A DNA stretch of 64,000 nucleotides from the NCBI GenBank assembly GCA_051882875.1, contig JBJESQ010000043.1, positions 7,284-71,283 on the forward strand. Direction: 5' to 3'. Position 1 is the first letter of the stretch, and the number at the start of each line of letters is the position of its first letter. This document shows positions 1-19,279 of the stretch, piece by piece. A model generated the notes under the pieces. The model was given only the letters and a program-made list of their open reading frames with translations. It was not told the origin of the DNA and did no database searches. Source of the DNA: Lentihominibacter sp. GTDB taxonomy: Bacteria; Bacillota; Clostridia; Peptostreptococcales; Anaerovoracaceae. A program made the translations under genes and the position numbers.

Positions 1-764
1 CGAACCACTGTAGGAACAAGGGTCACGGCCAGTCCCGCCTTCTCGCAGTTCCTTATTGCCTGCACCTTCTTGTCAAAGAGGGCCTCCCCCCGCAGCTTCA
101 GGTATATATCATCCCGGGTTCCGTCAAACTGCATGAATATGACAGAGGCGCCTGCCTCTTTAAGCAGGCGAGCATAGCCCTCCTCCTCAGCCAGGCGTCT
201 GCCGTTAGAATTAATCTGAATATATGAAAAGCCTTTATTTCGAGCCATGCGGATAATCTCCGGAAGGTCATCCCTGACTGTGGGCTCCCCTCCACTAAGC
301 TGAATATTAAACTCACGACCCTCTTCCCCCTGCTGCAAAAGCCAGTCAAATTTTTCGTTCATCTCCTCCAAAGTCGGTTCGTCAGGATTCAAATCCTCCC
401 CGGAGAGGGCGAAGCAGTAAGGACAGTGCTGATTGCACCTGTCTGTCACATCTATTAGAACACAGCATGCAGTCTGCAGATGATTCTCGCATGTTCCGCA
501 GTGGAGGGGGCACGAAGCATCCTCCGGGTCACCCCGGGTAATTGCTGTTTGAGGGGGGATATTCATAACAGGATGCTTTATCCATTCTTTGAAATCATCA
601 GCACGCTCCGAAGCCAGGGTTCTGAACTCACCGTGGTCGGGACATTTCTGAACAAAGAATACTCCGGTCCCCATATCACAGCAGCCCTCCTCCCGGATGT
701 AATACGCCGGAACGGGCCTCCTGCAGATTGGACATATGCTCTGTGTTCTGCTGATAATATCCAT
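1..764 (-). CDS. trsS: Radical SAM protein, TrsS-like (3' end runs off the window; not in the ORF track)
   Basis: Manual translation from ATG at 764 (SD AGGAGA): MDIISRTQSICPICRRPVPA...CPDHGEF...CPLHCGTCENHLQTACCVLIDVTDRCNQHCPYCFA...IQLSGGEPTVRDDL. It has the CxxxCxxC and GGEP motifs plus the Cys-rich N-terminus typical of TrsS, and stays open to the window edge. Confidence 0.8.
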   Translation of the reverse strand, partial: MDIISRTQSICPICRRPVPAYYIREEGCCDMGTGVFFVQKCPDHGEFRTLASERADDFKEWIKHPVMNIPPQTAITRGDPEDASCPLHCGTCENHLQTACCVLIDVTDRCNQHCPYCFALSGEDLNPDEPTLEEMNEKFDWLLQQGEEGREFNIQLSGGEPTVRDDLPEIIRMARNKGFSYIQINSNGRRLAEEEGYARLLKEAGASVIFMQFDGTRDDIYLKLRGEALFDKKVQAIRNCEKAGLAVTLVPTVV

Positions 765-812: not shown

Positions 813-1454
813 TCAGAGAATGGTATACCTGGTTCCCTTGAAATCAATGATACCTTCTCTCTTCATATTGTTCAGTTCATTGGAAAGTGCTGAGCGGTTT
901 ACGCACAGAAACTGTGCCAGCTGCTCCCTGCTCATCTTTATCGTGACTGTACTGCCGCCGGCTTTGCTTCTCAGAACATTGAGGTATACCATGATGCGAT
1001 CCCTCAGTCCACGCTCTGCAAGTATCTCTATCTTGTGGGCCATCTTGATATTGGCATCGGAGAGCATATAAAGCATAGCCCTGTTAATCTCCTCGCGGTA
1101 AGTGTTTCGCTCAATTGAGTGCATAGAAACAAAAACAACTACGGACTCCTCATTGCTGATATAGTCAACAGCGGCCTTCTTAGTTCGAGACGAAGATACC
1201 TCCAGTGCGAAAATCGATCCGGTATCAAATATGTCTACAATGTGAAGCTCCCCGTCCGGGTAGACCTTTTCGCTTCTGACACTTCCCTCTCTGATTATAC
1301 AGATTTTGTCAATAAGGTCACCCTCATAAAAAACAACCTCATTCTTTTTGTAGGTTCTTCCCGTTATCTTCAGCTGCTCAAAGGCCTCAATATAGTCGCG
1401 CTTGTCTATTTCGCTGAACAATCCGCTTTCGATTACTCCCTCAAGATACTTCAT
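813..1454 (-). CDS. Crp/Fnr family transcriptional regulator
   Basis: cNMP-binding-like N-terminus (VVFYEGD...GSIFALE) and C-terminal HTH (MSREQLAQFLCVNRSALSNELNNMKREGII). Confidence 0.93.
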   Translation of the reverse strand: MKYLEGVIESGLFSEIDKRDYIEAFEQLKITGRTYKKNEVVFYEGDLIDKICIIREGSVRSEKVYPDGELHIVDIFDTGSIFALEVSSSRTKKAAVDYISNEESVVVFVSMHSIERNTYREEINRAMLYMLSDANIKMAHKIEILAERGLRDRIMVYLNVLRSKAGGSTVTIKMSREQLAQFLCVNRSALSNELNNMKREGIIDFKGTRYTIL

Positions 1455-1616
1455 AAGAACTCTTCCTTTTTGTTGTCATTCTAACACAAATTATATAAAA
1501 GAAAAAACGGATTTTCATCCGTTTCCCCCGAGTCAATACTAGTCAATATCAATCACAACCTATCAAATAATCAACTTTGGCATGTATGTATGATACCCCG
1601 CATCGAGCTGTTTGTA

Positions 1617-1656: not shown

Positions 1657-2988
1657 TTAGCTTCGGATTTCTATCTCAGCAACATCTCTTATCCAGCGGC
1701 TTCCGTTATAATGTCCCCTGTCTCGCTGGCCGTATACCAGCCTGAAATCATCTGTGATGATTGCCGGAACCTCCTCGATAAGCTTTCCATTTTCGTCATA
1801 CCTTCCGGCCTGAAGAATTTCTGCGAGCCTGAGAGCCCTCACCACGCCCTTTTTATTAGTGACAAGGATGGTTGAATCCGCGTCTGCCTCCTCCGCCAGA
1901 ATTGCAGACAGCCTGACGCCTCTATGTCTTTCGAATACAAGCCTTCCCCTCTGCATCAGGGAGTACTCATACTCCTGGTGCTCCATCCGGTCAAACTCCT
2001 CCCGGGCAATTACCCGTAACCCGGCTCCCGGGACCGGAGTCTTCACCGCCAGCACCGCCCCATCATCAAGCTTCGGTGCCATAAGACTCTCCAGCTGCTC
2101 CATGCAAAGGCGAGCCGCAGCAGCCTCCGAACCCTTCTGCCCTCTGCAGTATTCAAACCTGGGGCATCTGCTGCAATCCTTTTTCGGCTTGGGGTTTACT
2201 GCCTTTGCATATGTATCAATTACCGTACCGGCGGAGTCAATTGTTTCCAGCTTTATTTCTGATTCCGTAACCTCAAATACTGTGGCAACGGATTCATATT
2301 CCCGCACAAAGGCCATATCCTCCAGATTAAATCCGTTAAAATATTTCGTCCCTGACACGCCCATAAGCTGGACCATAGGATACTCGGCGGAGCCCATCTC
2401 CCGGGTCCTGCAGTAAAGATGCTGATGGCCGCAGAGGATGAAATCCACCCTGTACTTTCTGAAAAGCTTCATGTAATTGTCCTGCATGGTCCTGGCCAGC
2501 ACATCATCCCCAAAGGATGTTCCGACTGTATACATCGGGTGATGCATCACCACAAAGGTCGCAGGTTTATCGTTTTCCTGAAGATCATCGCGAATCCAGT
2601 TGCCTATATATTTGTATGCAGCCTTCTGTCCTGTTCCCATGCACTGGGAATTCAGCACCAGAAAATGACAGCATCCATAGTCGAAGGAGTAGAAGCTCTC
2701 AGGAGAAGCCACCTTCAGGCTGTCCATCAGATCTCCTCCCGCCTCAAAAAACGCCTCCCATTCCTCCCGGCGATTTTCTCGTGTTCCCCTGTTCACCAGG
2801 TCTCCCCCAAGCAAAAGCAGACCCTCCCCCGGCGCCATGTCGGTCAGTGATTTCCCATCTCCTGCATACGCTCTGTCTGCTGCCATATGCAAAAGCCTGC
2901 CCCACTTGGAATAATCCGGCTCGGCGCCCTCTAGCCGGCTGGGCTGGGGATCTCCCATGTATATGAATTTTGTGGATTTGCTGTTCAT
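1657..2988 (-). CDS. Calcineurin-like metallophosphoesterase fused to a C-terminal sulfite-oxidase-like (Moco-binding fold) domain
   Basis: Start moved to ATG 2988 (SD AGGAGA). Motifs GDPQ, GGDLV, HHP and GHQH are present, but GNH is absent. A CxxCxxxxxC linker precedes a C-terminal domain with GVRLSAIL...VPAII...FRLVYGQ...WIRDVAEIEI. Confidence 0.75.
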   Translation of the reverse strand: MNSKSTKFIYMGDPQPSRLEGAEPDYSKWGRLLHMAADRAYAGDGKSLTDMAPGEGLLLLGGDLVNRGTRENRREEWEAFFEAGGDLMDSLKVASPESFYSFDYGCCHFLVLNSQCMGTGQKAAYKYIGNWIRDDLQENDKPATFVVMHHPMYTVGTSFGDDVLARTMQDNYMKLFRKYRVDFILCGHQHLYCRTREMGSAEYPMVQLMGVSGTKYFNGFNLEDMAFVREYESVATVFEVTESEIKLETIDSAGTVIDTYAKAVNPKPKKDCSRCPRFEYCRGQKGSEAAAARLCMEQLESLMAPKLDDGAVLAVKTPVPGAGLRVIAREEFDRMEHQEYEYSLMQRGRLVFERHRGVRLSAILAEEADADSTILVTNKKGVVRALRLAEILQAGRYDENGKLIEEVPAIITDDFRLVYGQRDRGHYNGSRWIRDVAEIEIRS

Positions 2989-3065
2989 ACAATTTCTCCT
3001 TGCTGTACAGGTCAAGTTTAACATACAACAGCAGCATTGCCGAAGTTATTTGTTTTCTCATACGA

Positions 3066-3097
3066 GGTGAGGACCGGGATTTCTCCCGGTCCTCACC
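3066..3097 (-). terminator. Stem-loop downstream of the 739-aa surface protein gene
   Basis: Perfect 14-bp arms GGTGAGGACCGGGA / TCCCGGTCCTCACC with a 4-nt loop. The U-tract on the minus strand is weak. Confidence 0.55.
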
Positions 3098-18571: not shown

Positions 18572-19279
18572 ATGAATAATCTATTTATTGAAGGCCCGAT
18601 TCAGAGGGGCAAATCAACTTTAATAAGAGAAGTACTGAAAAAATTCTACGGTCCCGGGCTTGATGGCTGTACCGCTGTCGCCGGCGGCAGAGGCGTTGGG
18701 GGATTTACTGTGCAGAGGATGACATTCCCCACTCAGGGTGCTGATAAGCGTTTCGGATTCAGACTTATGGAAGCATCGGCGCCCATAAGGGCACACACCT
18801 GTGTGGTTGCAGCTGATGAGGACTTGCTGCGGAGCGATGGTGTATTCAAGGTGATTGGTCCTTCCGGGGGCAGGACCAACATGAAAGTCTTCGAAACAAA
18901 GGCAGTGACGCTCATGGAGCAGGCGGCAGTCGATGCTGCGAAAGGCCGCATCAGCATGATACTTCTTGACGAAATCGGCGGTCACGAGCTGGCATGTCCC
19001 AGCTTCTGCAATAAACTGTACGAGCTGCTGGATTCGGATATTCCATGCATCGGCGTCATCAAGCACCCGGACAGTGCCCGTCGCATGGATCCGGCAATCG
19101 CCAATGCCAACGAAGAACTCCACAAAAAAATCACCGGGCCCCATGGGGAGCACGGTGAAATCCTCTATTTCGACGCCCCGGTGCATTGCGGTATCCCGGT
19201 GTTATCCAATAACGACCCGGATTCTTCCGGCGACGCTGTCAGAACCGCACTGGAAGAGTTCATCGCACGATTTATCTGA
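18572..19279 (+). CDS. P-loop nucleoside-triphosphatase (THEP1/NTPase_1-like)
   Basis: MNNLFIEGPIQRGKST Walker A and MILLDEIGGHE Walker B. Confidence 0.8.
   Translation: MNNLFIEGPIQRGKSTLIREVLKKFYGPGLDGCTAVAGGRGVGGFTVQRMTFPTQGADKRFGFRLMEASAPIRAHTCVVAADEDLLRSDGVFKVIGPSGGRTNMKVFETKAVTLMEQAAVDAAKGRISMILLDEIGGHELACPSFCNKLYELLDSDIPCIGVIKHPDSARRMDPAIANANEELHKKITGPHGEHGEILYFDAPVHCGIPVLSNNDPDSSGDAVRTALEEFIARFI

What the first reader, a model, noticed from the sequence alone, without database searches (positions are those of the whole stretch)
1657..2988. Cytoplasmic metallophosphoesterase fused to the same Moco-fold domain, missing the GNH motif
Seen: no signal peptide. Motifs I, II, IV and V are present, but the segment that normally carries GNH(D/E) is absent (EAGGDLMDSLKVASPESFYSFDYG). 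A CxxCxxxxxC linker precedes the C-terminal domain. Inference: a candidate intracellular processing step for imported cofactor, such as trimming the nucleotide of MCD/MGD or a phosphate. Alternatively it is an allele inactivated by an in-frame deletion.
Basis: partly seen in the sequence, partly recalled or inferred. Interest (0 to 1): 0.55.

Follow-up and report, generated by a model that had tools for sequence, protein, structure and literature searches.

The report
Cytoplasmic phosphoesterase fused to pterin-binding fold
A gut Clostridia bacterium encodes an intact, conserved cytoplasmic protein that joins a purple-acid-phosphatase-like metal domain lacking one catalytic loop to a cysteine-less copy of the molybdenum-cofactor-binding fold. 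It sits in a locus of cofactor-import and tungsten/molybdenum-enzyme genes, so it is probably the intracellular handler of a pterin cofactor.

Summary
There is no signal peptide. Motifs I, II, IV and V are present, the GNH loop is missing, and a CxxCxxxxxC linker precedes a 140-aa C-terminal domain.

The C-terminal domain is a sulfite-oxidase (SUOX) fold. VIA-align Z is 8-11.5 to SoxC, PruR, sulfite oxidase and YedY, then drops to 4.5. It contains no cysteine, like the pterin binder PruR.

The missing loop is not a strain allele. Five sequence clusters at 60-76% overall identity share the roughly 25-residue deletion. Their phosphoesterase domain is better conserved (67-83%) than the C-terminal domain (43-69%), and all other metal ligands are invariant in 34 family members.

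Motif III has eroded repeatedly. Only 5 of 39 cytoplasmic relatives keep GNH, whereas every secreted purple-acid-phosphatase-like outgroup member keeps it. Those outgroup enzymes are surface proteins in the same kind of uptake locus (MotA/ExbB, Oxidored_molyb proteins, GLUG proteins, Crp).

The fused gene sits next to a Crp-family regulator in seven of the nine fused loci, and often beside the ABC importer, FdhD and a methyltransferase.

My best reading is a cytoplasmic pterin-cofactor handler with a remodelled dimetal site. Whether it is a hydrolase or a non-hydrolytic clamp is unresolved. The scan had already flagged the neighbouring uptake operons on this window, and phosphoesterases in similar loci on other DNA.

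The parts
1657..2988 (-). Complete coding sequence, 443 aa plus stop: phosphoesterase-like domain, Cys linker and SUOX-fold domain
   Evidence: P0002 is 100% identical, 443 aa. AlphaFold2 model: pLDDT 91.1, pTM 0.90.
2996..3001 (-). Ribosome-binding site AAGGAG, 7 nt before the ATG at 2988
   Evidence: Sequence read.
2194..2988 (-). Metallophosphoesterase domain (aa 1-265), purple-acid-phosphatase-like
   Evidence: Pfam PF00149, 40.3 bits against a cut-off of 21.5. Foldseek top hits are purple acid phosphatases 1xzw, 1ute and 4dhl, E about 1e-11.
2944..2955 (-). Motif I, GDPQ (D13, Q15)
   Evidence: D13 and Q15 are present in all 32 sequences that cover the position.
2791..2808 (-). Motif II, GGDLVN (D63 bridging ligand, N66)
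   Evidence: D63 is invariant; N66 is present in 33 of 34.
2689..2718 (-). Deletion junction KVASPES|FYS (aa 91-100), where the motif III GNH loop and about 25 following residues are missing
   Evidence: The segment is 48 residues here, 73 in the nearest undeleted relative P0009 and 69-79 in most of the others.
2536..2547 (-). Motif IV, MHHP (H149, H150)
   Evidence: H149 is invariant; H150 is present in 33 of 34.
2419..2433 (-). Motif V, CGHQH (H188, H190)
   Evidence: invariant in 34 of 34.
2146..2175 (-). Cys triad CSRCPRFEYC (C272, C275, C281) in a low-confidence linker
   Evidence: present in 28 of 34 family members. pLDDT is 58-69 over residues 271-290.
1660..2073 (-). C-terminal SUOX-fold (Moco/pterin-binding fold) domain, aa 306-443, with no cysteine
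   Evidence: Domain model pLDDT 91. Foldseek: PruR 7kom, E 2.7e-5, then sulfite oxidases. VIA-align: Z 7.9-11.5 for ten SUOX-fold chains, next best 4.5. ESM features: nearest clusters are small Bacillota Oxidored_molyb proteins.
3066..3097 (-). Perfect 14-bp hairpin (GAAA loop) between the upstream 739-aa gene and this gene
   Evidence: Sequence read. No U-tract follows it.
1500..1529 (-). Terminator-like hairpin with T-run after this gene, overlapping the promoter-like site of crp
   Evidence: sequence.
813..1454 (-). Crp/FNR-family regulator, the most constant neighbour of the fused gene
   Evidence: Pfam cNMP_binding plus HTH_Crp_2. Directly downstream of the fused gene in 7 of 9 fused loci and of the phosphoesterase-only form in 2 of 3 loci, at 55-90% identity.

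Best explanation
The gene encodes a cytoplasmic accessory protein of the Mo/W-pterin cofactor locus.

Its C-terminal, cysteine-less SUOX-fold domain binds a pyranopterin-type ligand. This is probably the same ligand that the surface proteins of the neighbouring importer operons capture.

Its N-terminal domain descends from a surface purple-acid-phosphatase-like enzyme of the same kind of locus. It keeps a metal centre (D13, D63, N66, H149, H188, H190) that engages the ligand's phosphate or nucleotide-pyrophosphate end.

In this clade the motif III loop, which carries the Asn metal ligand and the general-acid His, has been excised. The protein therefore most likely works in one of two ways. It may be a slow hydrolase of a good leaving group, that is, the pyrophosphate bond of a dinucleotide or adenylated cofactor. 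Or it may be a non-hydrolytic phosphate clamp that receives and holds imported or newly made cofactor for the tungsten and molybdenum enzymes encoded nearby.

Shown here: the architecture, the folds, the conservation pattern and the synteny. Inferred: the ligand, the metal occupancy and any catalysis.
For: Folds: purple acid phosphatases for aa 1-265. SUOX, PruR and YedY for aa 306-443, with Z 7.9-11.5 and a cliff to 4.5, and Oxidored_molyb neighbours by ESM features.

Selection: in the deletion clade the phosphoesterase domain is 67-83% identical against 43-69% for the C-terminal domain. D63, H108, H149, H188, H190 and R194 are invariant in 34 sequences, and D13, Q15 and N66 nearly so.

History: all 8 secreted outgroup members keep GNH. 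Only 5 of 39 cytoplasmic members do, with several independent losses.

Context in the window: two aldehyde:ferredoxin oxidoreductases, a xanthine-dehydrogenase-type enzyme, MobB-FdhD, ThiF, two FecCD/PBP2/MotA-ExbB importer operons and a 170-aa Oxidored_molyb protein. A Moco riboswitch lies at 32965-33096.

Synteny: in 12 loci from other genomes the gene lies beside Crp, the 413-aa methyltransferase, FdhD and the importer genes.

Outgroup: surface phosphatases with signal peptide, PAP_N domain and GNH lie in loci with MotA/ExbB, Oxidored_molyb proteins, paralogues of the 458- and 543-aa proteins, GLUG proteins and Crp. These loci are in Anaerovoracaceae genomes, Clostridium ragsdalei and Sporotomaculum.

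The own genome has no second member of the family.

Four of ten carrier genomes show no MoaC.
Against: No ligand, metal or activity was tested.

The C-terminal domain has no significant sequence match to PF00174, PruR or any solved SUOX protein. Ligand binding is therefore inferred from fold alone.

This genome has MoaA, MoaC, two MoeA genes and an NTP_transf_3 protein. Six of ten carrier genomes have MoaC. The protein is therefore not tied to loss of synthesis.

According to published mutant work recalled from my own knowledge, loss of the motif III Asn and His cripples other metallophosphoesterases.

Three loci (L006-L008) carry the gene with Crp but without importer genes within 10 kb, apart from MotA/ExbB in two of them.

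A sister group (L010, L011, L013) lacks the C-terminal domain.
Confidence: 0.45

Rival explanations
1. Pterin/cofactor sensor working with the adjacent Crp-family regulator. The PruR-like domain senses cofactor. The degenerate phosphoesterase domain is an output or interaction module, or a phosphodiesterase for the regulator's effector. Together they would give the riboswitch-less importer operon a protein-based cofactor control.
For: The gene-then-Crp order is the most constant feature of the family (7 of 9 fused loci and 2 of 3 phosphoesterase-only loci). Gaps are as short as 5-37 bp in L008 and L006, which suggests co-transcription. The pair travels together without the importer in L006-L008. 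PruR is a precedent for a Cys-less SUOX fold acting as a pterin sensor that controls a partner enzyme (PMC11194511). Erosion of a catalytic motif fits an enzyme turned regulator. The best NCBIfam hits are cyclic-nucleotide phosphodiesterases, though far below cut-off.
Against: In this window a terminator-like hairpin and a separate promoter-like site lie between the two genes. No class III nucleotide cyclase was found in the genome, which is 92.5% complete. Crp orthologues at 54% identity occur in two congeners where the fused gene was not found. The regulator scores best with FixK, NtcA and FNR types rather than cAMP-CRP. No shared Crp/FNR box was found upstream of the gene across loci. L009, L012 and L013 lack the adjacent Crp.
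Confidence: 0.2
2. Metal-handling scaffold. The dimetal site, stripped of its general acid, binds tungstate or molybdate as a phosphate analogue. It presents the oxyanion, with help from the Cys triad, to pterin held by the SUOX-fold domain. This would serve metal insertion or Mo/W exchange for the tungsten oxidoreductases.
For: Purple acid phosphatases bind tungstate and molybdate at the dimetal site (own knowledge; kidney-bean entries 3kbp and 4kbp appear among the matches). The locus encodes both W-type (AFOR) and Mo-type (XDH) enzymes. The conserved Cys triad lies in a flexible linker. The metal ligands are retained although catalysis looks impaired.
Against: Purely inferential. The genome has two MoeA genes for the canonical insertion step. 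The Cys triad is missing in 6 of 34 members. No oxyanion-binding residues were identified.
Confidence: 0.1
3. Generic cytoplasmic phosphatase or diesterase unrelated to pterins. The C-terminal beta-rich domain would be a structural or oligomerisation module, and the genomic neighbourhood a coincidence of a mobile island.
For: There is no sequence-level link of the C-terminal domain to known pterin binders. The gene occurs near unrelated MoxR-DUF58-transglutaminase genes in L006 and L008. The family is rare and patchy: found in 1 of 301 genomes sampled in the order.
Against: The same locus components recur with both the cytoplasmic form and the surface outgroup form in very different genomes. 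The fold match is specific to the Moco-binding fold, with a large gap to the next fold.
Confidence: 0.12
4. Inactivated allele or decaying pseudogene produced by an in-frame deletion.
For: The motif III Asn and His are absent, and C16, conserved next to motif I in 26 of 28 other members, is Pro here.
Against: The frame is intact and has a good ribosome-binding site. The deletion is shared by five clusters at 60-76% overall identity. The phosphoesterase domain is more conserved than the rest of the protein, and all remaining ligands are invariant. The nearest undeleted relative, P0009, already had a degenerate loop (SESHG), so the deletion removed a loop that had already lost GNH.
Confidence: 0.03

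Closest known systems
Purple acid phosphatase-like metallophosphoesterases (Pfam PF00149; PDB 1xzw, 1kbp/4dhl, 1ute), and in particular the surface PAP-like proteins of Anaerovoracaceae, Clostridium ragsdalei and Sporotomaculum found here (P0055, P0080, L040, L077, L048)
   Same: Same fold (Foldseek E about 1e-11). Motifs I, II, IV and V and the FYSFDYG..H hairpin are shared. Sequence identity is 26-32% over 260 residues. The genomic company is the same (MotA/ExbB, Oxidored_molyb proteins, GLUG proteins, Crp).
   Different: No signal peptide and no PAP_N domain (PF16656). Asn replaces the Fe-binding Tyr of GDLSY. Motif III GNH and about 25 residues after it are deleted. A Cys triad and a SUOX-fold domain are added at the C-terminus.
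PruR, the periplasmic pterin-binding protein of Agrobacterium, Vibrio and Klebsiella (PDB 7kou, 7kom, 7kp2, 7rkb; PMC11194511)
   Same: A minimal SUOX fold of about 140 residues without the Mo-binding cysteine. Foldseek E 2.7e-5; VIA-align Z 11.1-11.3 over 117-121 residues.
   Different: Cytoplasmic and fused, not a secreted single-domain protein. No detectable sequence similarity. The model has a long beta-hairpin (model residues 41-63), whereas the paper describes a truncated one in PruR. The partner is a phosphoesterase domain, not the DcpA cyclase-phosphodiesterase.
Sulfite oxidase family Moco domains (chicken SO 1sox, SoxC 2xts, SorA 2blf, YedY/MsrP 1xdq; Pfam PF00174)
   Same: Same fold, Z 8.4-11.5. 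The last strand carries a W-I-R..V..IE patch that is collinear with that of the window's own PF00174 protein (not significant by score).
   Different: No cysteine anywhere in the domain, so no Mo ligand. No PF00174 match. About 140 residues instead of about 250. No dimerisation or haem domain.
Metallophosphoesterase-fold proteins with lost or altered catalytic residues: Vps29 (5gtu, 6xs5), Plasmodium GAP50 (3tgh) and LpxH (GNRD; own knowledge)
   Same: The MPE fold is kept while motif III is altered or lost. GAP50 and Vps29 appear among the structural matches.
   Different: Here only motif III is lost and every other ligand is invariant. Vps29 and GAP50 have lost several ligands. LpxH keeps the Asn.
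Moco chaperones and carriers: FdhD, XdhC, Chlamydomonas Moco carrier protein (own knowledge)
   Same: The proposed job is the same: to hold or prepare pyranopterin cofactor in the cytoplasm. An FdhD gene is a direct neighbour in L012 and L013.
   Different: No homology. None of them contains a metallophosphoesterase or a SUOX-fold domain.

Membership tests
Metallophosphoesterase superfamily (PF00149) | Profile match above the curated cut-off, and the alpha/beta sandwich fold | tested here: met
   40.3 bits against 21.5, but only residues 139-203 are matched. Foldseek E 4.7e-12 to 1xzw.
Metallophosphoesterase superfamily (PF00149) | Motifs I (D), II (GD), IV (H) and V (GHxH) | tested here: met
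   D13, D63, H149, H188 and H190, invariant across the family.
Metallophosphoesterase superfamily (PF00149) | Motif III, GNH(D/E) | tested here: not met
   Absent: KVASPES runs into FYSFDYG. About 25 residues are missing relative to P0009.
Purple acid phosphatases proper | N-terminal PAP domain (PF16656) | tested here: not met
   No PF16656 hit. It is present in the outgroup proteins.
Purple acid phosphatases proper | Tyr ligand of Fe(III) in GDLSY | tested here: not met
   The motif reads GDLVN, with N66 in 33 of 34 members. The equivalence of the positions comes from alignment and my own knowledge of 1kbp.
Sulfite oxidase (SUOX) family enzymes, PF00174 | Moco-binding fold | tested here: met
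   VIA-align Z 7.9-11.5 for ten SUOX-fold chains, next fold 4.5. Foldseek agrees.
Sulfite oxidase (SUOX) family enzymes, PF00174 | Molybdenum-coordinating cysteine | tested here: not met
   There is no Cys in residues 306-443.
Sulfite oxidase (SUOX) family enzymes, PF00174 | Pfam profile match | tested here: not met
   No PF00174 hit at E 0.01. The ESM feature neighbours carry PF00174 in 63-65% of members.
PruR-type pterin-binding proteins | Small Cys-less SUOX fold | tested here: met
   (7kom, 7kp2, 7rkb, 7kou).
PruR-type pterin-binding proteins | N-terminal secretion signal and periplasmic location | tested here: not met
   The domain is the C-terminus of a protein that has no signal peptide.
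PruR-type pterin-binding proteins | Pterin-contact residues (N102, Y104, W160 of A. tumefaciens PruR; PW motif) | tested here: inconclusive
   No residue-level alignment could be obtained. A nearly invariant Trp (W432) lies in the last strand and a nearly invariant Thr before Asn in the TN motif of the central strand, but their equivalence to the PruR residues is not shown.
Class III cyclic-nucleotide phosphodiesterases (CpdA, NF008359) | Equivalog score | tested here: not met
   27.4 bits against a cut-off of 225.

The most novel reading that the evidence does not exclude
The protein is the cytoplasmic receiving station of a bacterial molybdenum/tungsten cofactor salvage route. A purple-acid-phosphatase-derived dimetal domain moved from the cell surface into the cytoplasm and shed its general-acid loop. 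With a Cys triad and a Cys-less Moco-binding fold, it now takes imported pyranopterin cofactor. It then strips the nucleotide or exchanges the metal, so that the cofactor can be loaded into tungsten aldehyde oxidoreductases.
Probability: 0.2. Interest if true: 0.8.

Novelty: new variant of a known kind. Interest (0 to 1): 0.55.

Why it matters
Bacteria are generally held to make their own molybdenum/tungsten cofactor, and I found no paper describing either an uptake route or an intracellular acceptor.

If the neighbouring operons really import the cofactor, this protein is the only candidate in the locus for what happens to it inside the cell. It offers a single soluble 443-residue protein that can be expressed and tested for pterin binding, metal content and hydrolysis.

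Independently of that question, it is an unusual natural experiment in the metallophosphoesterase superfamily. One catalytic motif has been lost repeatedly, and here excised, while every other metal ligand stays invariant. That pattern asks what a dimetal site without its Asn and His is used for.

Tried and rejected
Genomic context came from the search for related loci and the genome search instead.
- The giant protein P0072 (6093 aa, 8 stretches) looked like a repeat carrier of the C-terminal domain, but it does not match the family HMM. P0078 is low-complexity. P0073-P0077 are fragments of the same fused family. The exhaustive single-sequence search therefore found this domain only in the fused family.
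- Sequence searches of the C-terminal domain and of the family profile against solved structures found no SUOX or PruR chain.
- hhalign and BLASTP against the window's 170-aa Oxidored_molyb protein and the 458-aa protein were weak or not significant.
- A scan for shared Crp (TGTGA-N6-TCACA) or FNR (TTGAT-N4-ATCAA) boxes upstream of the gene in 13 loci gave nothing consistent.
- No stand-alone copy of the C-terminal domain was found near the phosphoesterase-only genes of L010, L011 and L013.
- The cAMP phosphodiesterase reading was weakened by the lack of a class III cyclase in the genome.
I could not measure where E96, the Cys triad or the SUOX cleft lie relative to the metal site.
- A literature search for metallophosphoesterase together with molybdenum cofactor returned nothing relevant.
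Full report
**What is there**

The finding's coordinates hold a gene on the minus strand. The longest ORF is 1657..3024 (455 aa). The ATG at 2988 is preceded by AAGGAG at 2996-3001. The database gene call with 100% identity is 443 aa (P0002), and homologues start at the equivalent Met. I therefore use 1657..2988 and 443-aa numbering.

The stop-to-stop frame leaves 19 codons before this ATG. The first beta-strand of the predicted fold starts at residue 6. There is thus no room for a signal peptide, and the protein is cytoplasmic.

A perfect 14-bp hairpin (3066-3097) separates the gene from the upstream 739-aa gene. A hairpin with a T-run (1500-1529) follows it, before a promoter-like site of the crp gene. 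In this genome it looks monocistronic.

**The phosphoesterase domain**

- Pfam finds Metallophos only over residues 139-203 of the 455-aa ORF.
- Purple acid phosphatase (PAP) sequences in the PDB align only from residue 110 onward.
- The AlphaFold2 model built on 34 family sequences is confident (pLDDT 91.1, pTM 0.90). Its best Foldseek matches are PAPs (1xzw, 1ute, 4dhl, E about 1e-11). GAP50 and Vps29, two catalytically dead members of the fold, appear further down the list.
- Motifs I (GDPQ 12-15), II (GGDLVN 61-66), IV (MHHP 148-151) and V (CGHQH 186-190) are present.
- Strand beta-3 (KVAS, 91-94) is followed by PES and then directly by FYSFDYG. Motif II to that hairpin spans 48 residues here, against 69-79 in most relatives and 73 in the nearest undeleted one.

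**Is the gap a strain allele?**

No. P0003, P0004, P0006 and P0007 share the same junction. They are 76, 69, 64 and 60% identical overall, and one cluster has 370 member sequences.

Within this clade the phosphoesterase domain is 67-83% identical, the linker 46-68% and the C-terminal domain 43-69%. The domain that lost the motif is therefore the most constrained part of the protein.

D63, H108, H149, C186, H188, H190 and R194 are invariant in all 34 full-length relatives. D13, Q15, N66 and H150 are nearly so.

A maximum-likelihood tree of 47 sequences gives the following.
- A secreted, PAP-like outgroup of 8 sequences, all with GNH.
- A cytoplasmic family of 39 sequences (support 100/99) in which only 5 keep GNH.
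- The other 34 read GN[FSKR], G[VTY]H, VNG or [VIT]TG, or carry the deletion, spread over several well-supported clades.
- The deletion clade (100/100) also contains P0009. P0009 is not deleted but already reads SESHG, so the deletion removed a loop that had already lost GNH.

One further clade-specific change sits next to motif I. The Cys of GDPQC, present in 26 of 28 other members, is Pro here.

**The linker and the C-terminal domain**

C272-x2-C275-x5-C281 is present in 28 of 34 family members. It lies in the only low-confidence stretch of the model (pLDDT 58-69).

I modelled residues 297-443 alone on a 33-sequence alignment (pLDDT 91.0).
- Foldseek's best match is the pterin-binding protein PruR (7kom, E 2.7e-5), followed by sulfite oxidases, SoxC, YedY and nitrate reductase.
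- VIA-align against 48,161 chains puts ten SUOX-fold chains on top: 2xts Z 11.5, 7rkb 11.3, 7kp2 11.1, 2blf 10.5, 2bii 10.0, 4pw3 9.6, 2a99 and 1sox 9.0, 1xdq 8.4, 8s5s 7.9. The next fold scores 4.5.
- ESM feature neighbours are small Bacillota proteins that carry PF00174.

The domain has no cysteine, so it cannot ligate Mo as SUOX enzymes do. PruR likewise lacks this Cys and binds non-Moco pterins (PMC11194511).

By sequence the domain stands apart.
- An exhaustive phmmer search of 1.84 billion representatives found it only in this fused family.
- Pfam and PDB sequence searches see nothing.
- Similarity to the other SUOX-like domains of the window is marginal.

"The same Moco-fold domain" is therefore true for the fold but not for the sequence family.

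**Context**

The window encodes the following:
- two aldehyde:ferredoxin oxidoreductases;
- a xanthine-dehydrogenase-type enzyme;
- MobB-FdhD and ThiF;
- two FecCD/ABC/PBP2/MotA-ExbB importer operons with large surface proteins;
- a 170-aa Oxidored_molyb protein.

A Moco riboswitch lies at 32965-33096.

The search for related loci returned 80 loci.
- Nine carry the full fusion (L002-L009 and L012; rumen and gut Clostridia MAGs, 32-75% identity).
- Three carry a phosphoesterase-only form (L010, L011, L013).

In these 12 loci the gene is directly followed by the Crp-family regulator in 9, seven of them fused loci. It lies next to the 413-aa methyltransferase in 5 and next to FdhD in 2. It lies within 10 kb of FecCD/ABC/PBP2/543-aa/MotA-ExbB/GLUG genes in 5 (L003, L004, L005, L012, L013; L003 shows only the ABC ATPase and the GLUG and 739-aa proteins), and L010 adds ABC ATPase, PBP2, MotA-ExbB and a GLUG protein.

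L006-L008 carry only the gene-Crp pair, beside MoxR-DUF58-transglutaminase genes.

The family is rare. It was found in 1 of 301 genomes sampled from the order, and not in five congeners.

**The outgroup tells the history**

The more distant homologues (26-32% identity) have a signal peptide, a PAP_N domain, an intact GNH and a C-terminal membrane anchor or SLH/surface domains.

In Anaerovoracaceae genomes (L040, L051, L075, L077), Clostridium ragsdalei (L048) and Sporotomaculum (L023) they lie among MotA/ExbB, small Oxidored_molyb proteins, paralogues of the 458- and 543-aa proteins, GLUG proteins, ABC ATPases, PBP2 and Crp.

A PAP-like phosphoesterase is thus a recurrent part of this locus type, normally on the cell surface. 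In one gut clade it lost its export signal and PAP_N domain, gained the Cys triad and the SUOX-fold domain, and let motif III decay. The own genome has no second member of the family.

**Cofactor synthesis**

- The own genome (92.5% complete) has MoaA and MoaC side by side, two MoeA genes and an NTP_transf_3 protein.
- MoaE was not found.
- MoaC is present in 6 of 10 other carrier genomes and was not found in 4.

The protein is therefore compatible with salvage but not tied to loss of synthesis.

**Interpretation**

Shown:
- an intact, selected, cytoplasmic two-domain protein;
- a PAP-derived metal domain without motif III;
- a Cys-less Moco-fold domain;
- conserved company of importer, Crp, FdhD and methyltransferase genes.

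Inferred: the SUOX-fold domain binds a pyranopterin-type ligand, and the metal site engages its phosphate end.

Hydrolysis of a phosphoanhydride (MGD, MCD or MPT-AMP) needs less general-acid help than hydrolysis of an alkyl phosphate. LpxH-type pyrophosphatases also lack the motif III His (own knowledge). It would make sense because AFOR-type enzymes use non-nucleotide pterin (own knowledge).

For the deletion clade, which lacks both Asn and His, a slow hydrolase and a non-hydrolytic phosphate clamp or carrier seem about equally likely.

Rivals:
- a sensor role with Crp, supported by the very tight gene-Crp pairing and by the PruR precedent (0.2);
- an oxyanion or metal-handling role (0.1);
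- an unrelated phosphatase (0.12);
- a dead allele (0.03).

**Comparison and novelty**

I found no paper on such a fusion. NCBI names one member only "metallophosphoesterase". It fails the motif III test of the superfamily, the PAP_N and Tyr tests of true PAPs, the Cys test of SUOX enzymes and the secretion test of PruR. I file it as a new variant: a new architecture and a new active-site state within known folds.

Earlier notes of this scan had already proposed the two neighbouring operons of this window as cofactor importers (e1-5225503, e1-5225498). On other DNA they had noted phosphoesterases, mostly surface ones, in candidate pterin-cofactor salvage loci (for example e1-5645857, e1-2797546). 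I used these as leads. My own searches agree with the parts I could check. The import hypothesis itself was not tested here.

Noticed in passing
window 3-764 (-), running off the window start: Radical SAM gene with an N-terminal HMPTM-type zinc ribbon (Pfam PF23545). Its best NCBIfam match is the radical SAM (seleno)protein TrsS (E 1e-84, truncated by the window edge), then the tetraether lipid synthase Tes. It follows crp here and in L002 and L003, and follows MobB-FdhD in L009, so it belongs to the conserved gene set.
   Followed up: partly
window 2941-2943 (-), residue 16: The Cys directly after motif I (GDPQC) is present in 26 of 28 other cytoplasmic family members and in P0009, but is Pro in all five deletion-clade sequences. 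This is a second active-site-proximal change that accompanies the loop deletion.
   Followed up: partly
own genome G000 (C34:48507-49372; C25:14130-15865): MoaA and MoaC are adjacent and two MoeA genes are present, but no MoaE was found in this 92.5%-complete, 1.48-Mb genome. MPT synthase may be missing, unassembled or divergent.
   Followed up: partly
L006 4647-9011 and L008 2258-6569: In two distant carriers the fused gene and crp lie beside a MoxR AAA ATPase, DUF58 and transglutaminase trio rather than the importer. In both, a pyruvate-carboxylase-type gene follows.
   Followed up: no
L048 7835-11182 (Clostridium ragsdalei P11): A 1115-aa surface protein joins two Shr-like haemoglobin-interacting domains (PF07550), a PAP_N domain and an intact phosphoesterase. 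It sits in a locus with GLUG proteins, a paralogue of the 458-aa protein and a PBP2 binding protein. Its first roughly 260 residues have no Pfam match.
   Followed up: no
window 1530-1600 (-), between the gene's stop and the crp promoter: A cluster of TTGAT/TTGAC repeats (TTGATTATTTGATAGGTTGTGATTGATATTGACTAGTATTGACT) lies just upstream of the terminator-like hairpin and the crp promoter-like site. It may be an operator for autoregulation.
   Followed up: no
P0007, C-terminal domain (alignment A1 columns 617-680): One deletion-clade member carries an insertion of about 60 residues, rich in E, T and P and of low complexity, inside the SUOX-fold domain after the G-x-R-L strand.
   Followed up: no
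G000:C43:1869-2414 (-), about 5 kb before the window start: A 503-aa ORF with an NTP_transf_3 (MobA/MocA-type nucleotidyltransferase) domain lies just outside the window. The organism may therefore itself make dinucleotide cofactor.
   Followed up: no
window 18572-19279 (+): A 235-aa ORF with a weak match to an NTPase (PRK13695) lies between the TylF-like and the 413-aa methyltransferase genes. It is conserved in L004, L005 and L009, and it is a possible kinase or NTPase of the cytoplasmic module.
   Followed up: no
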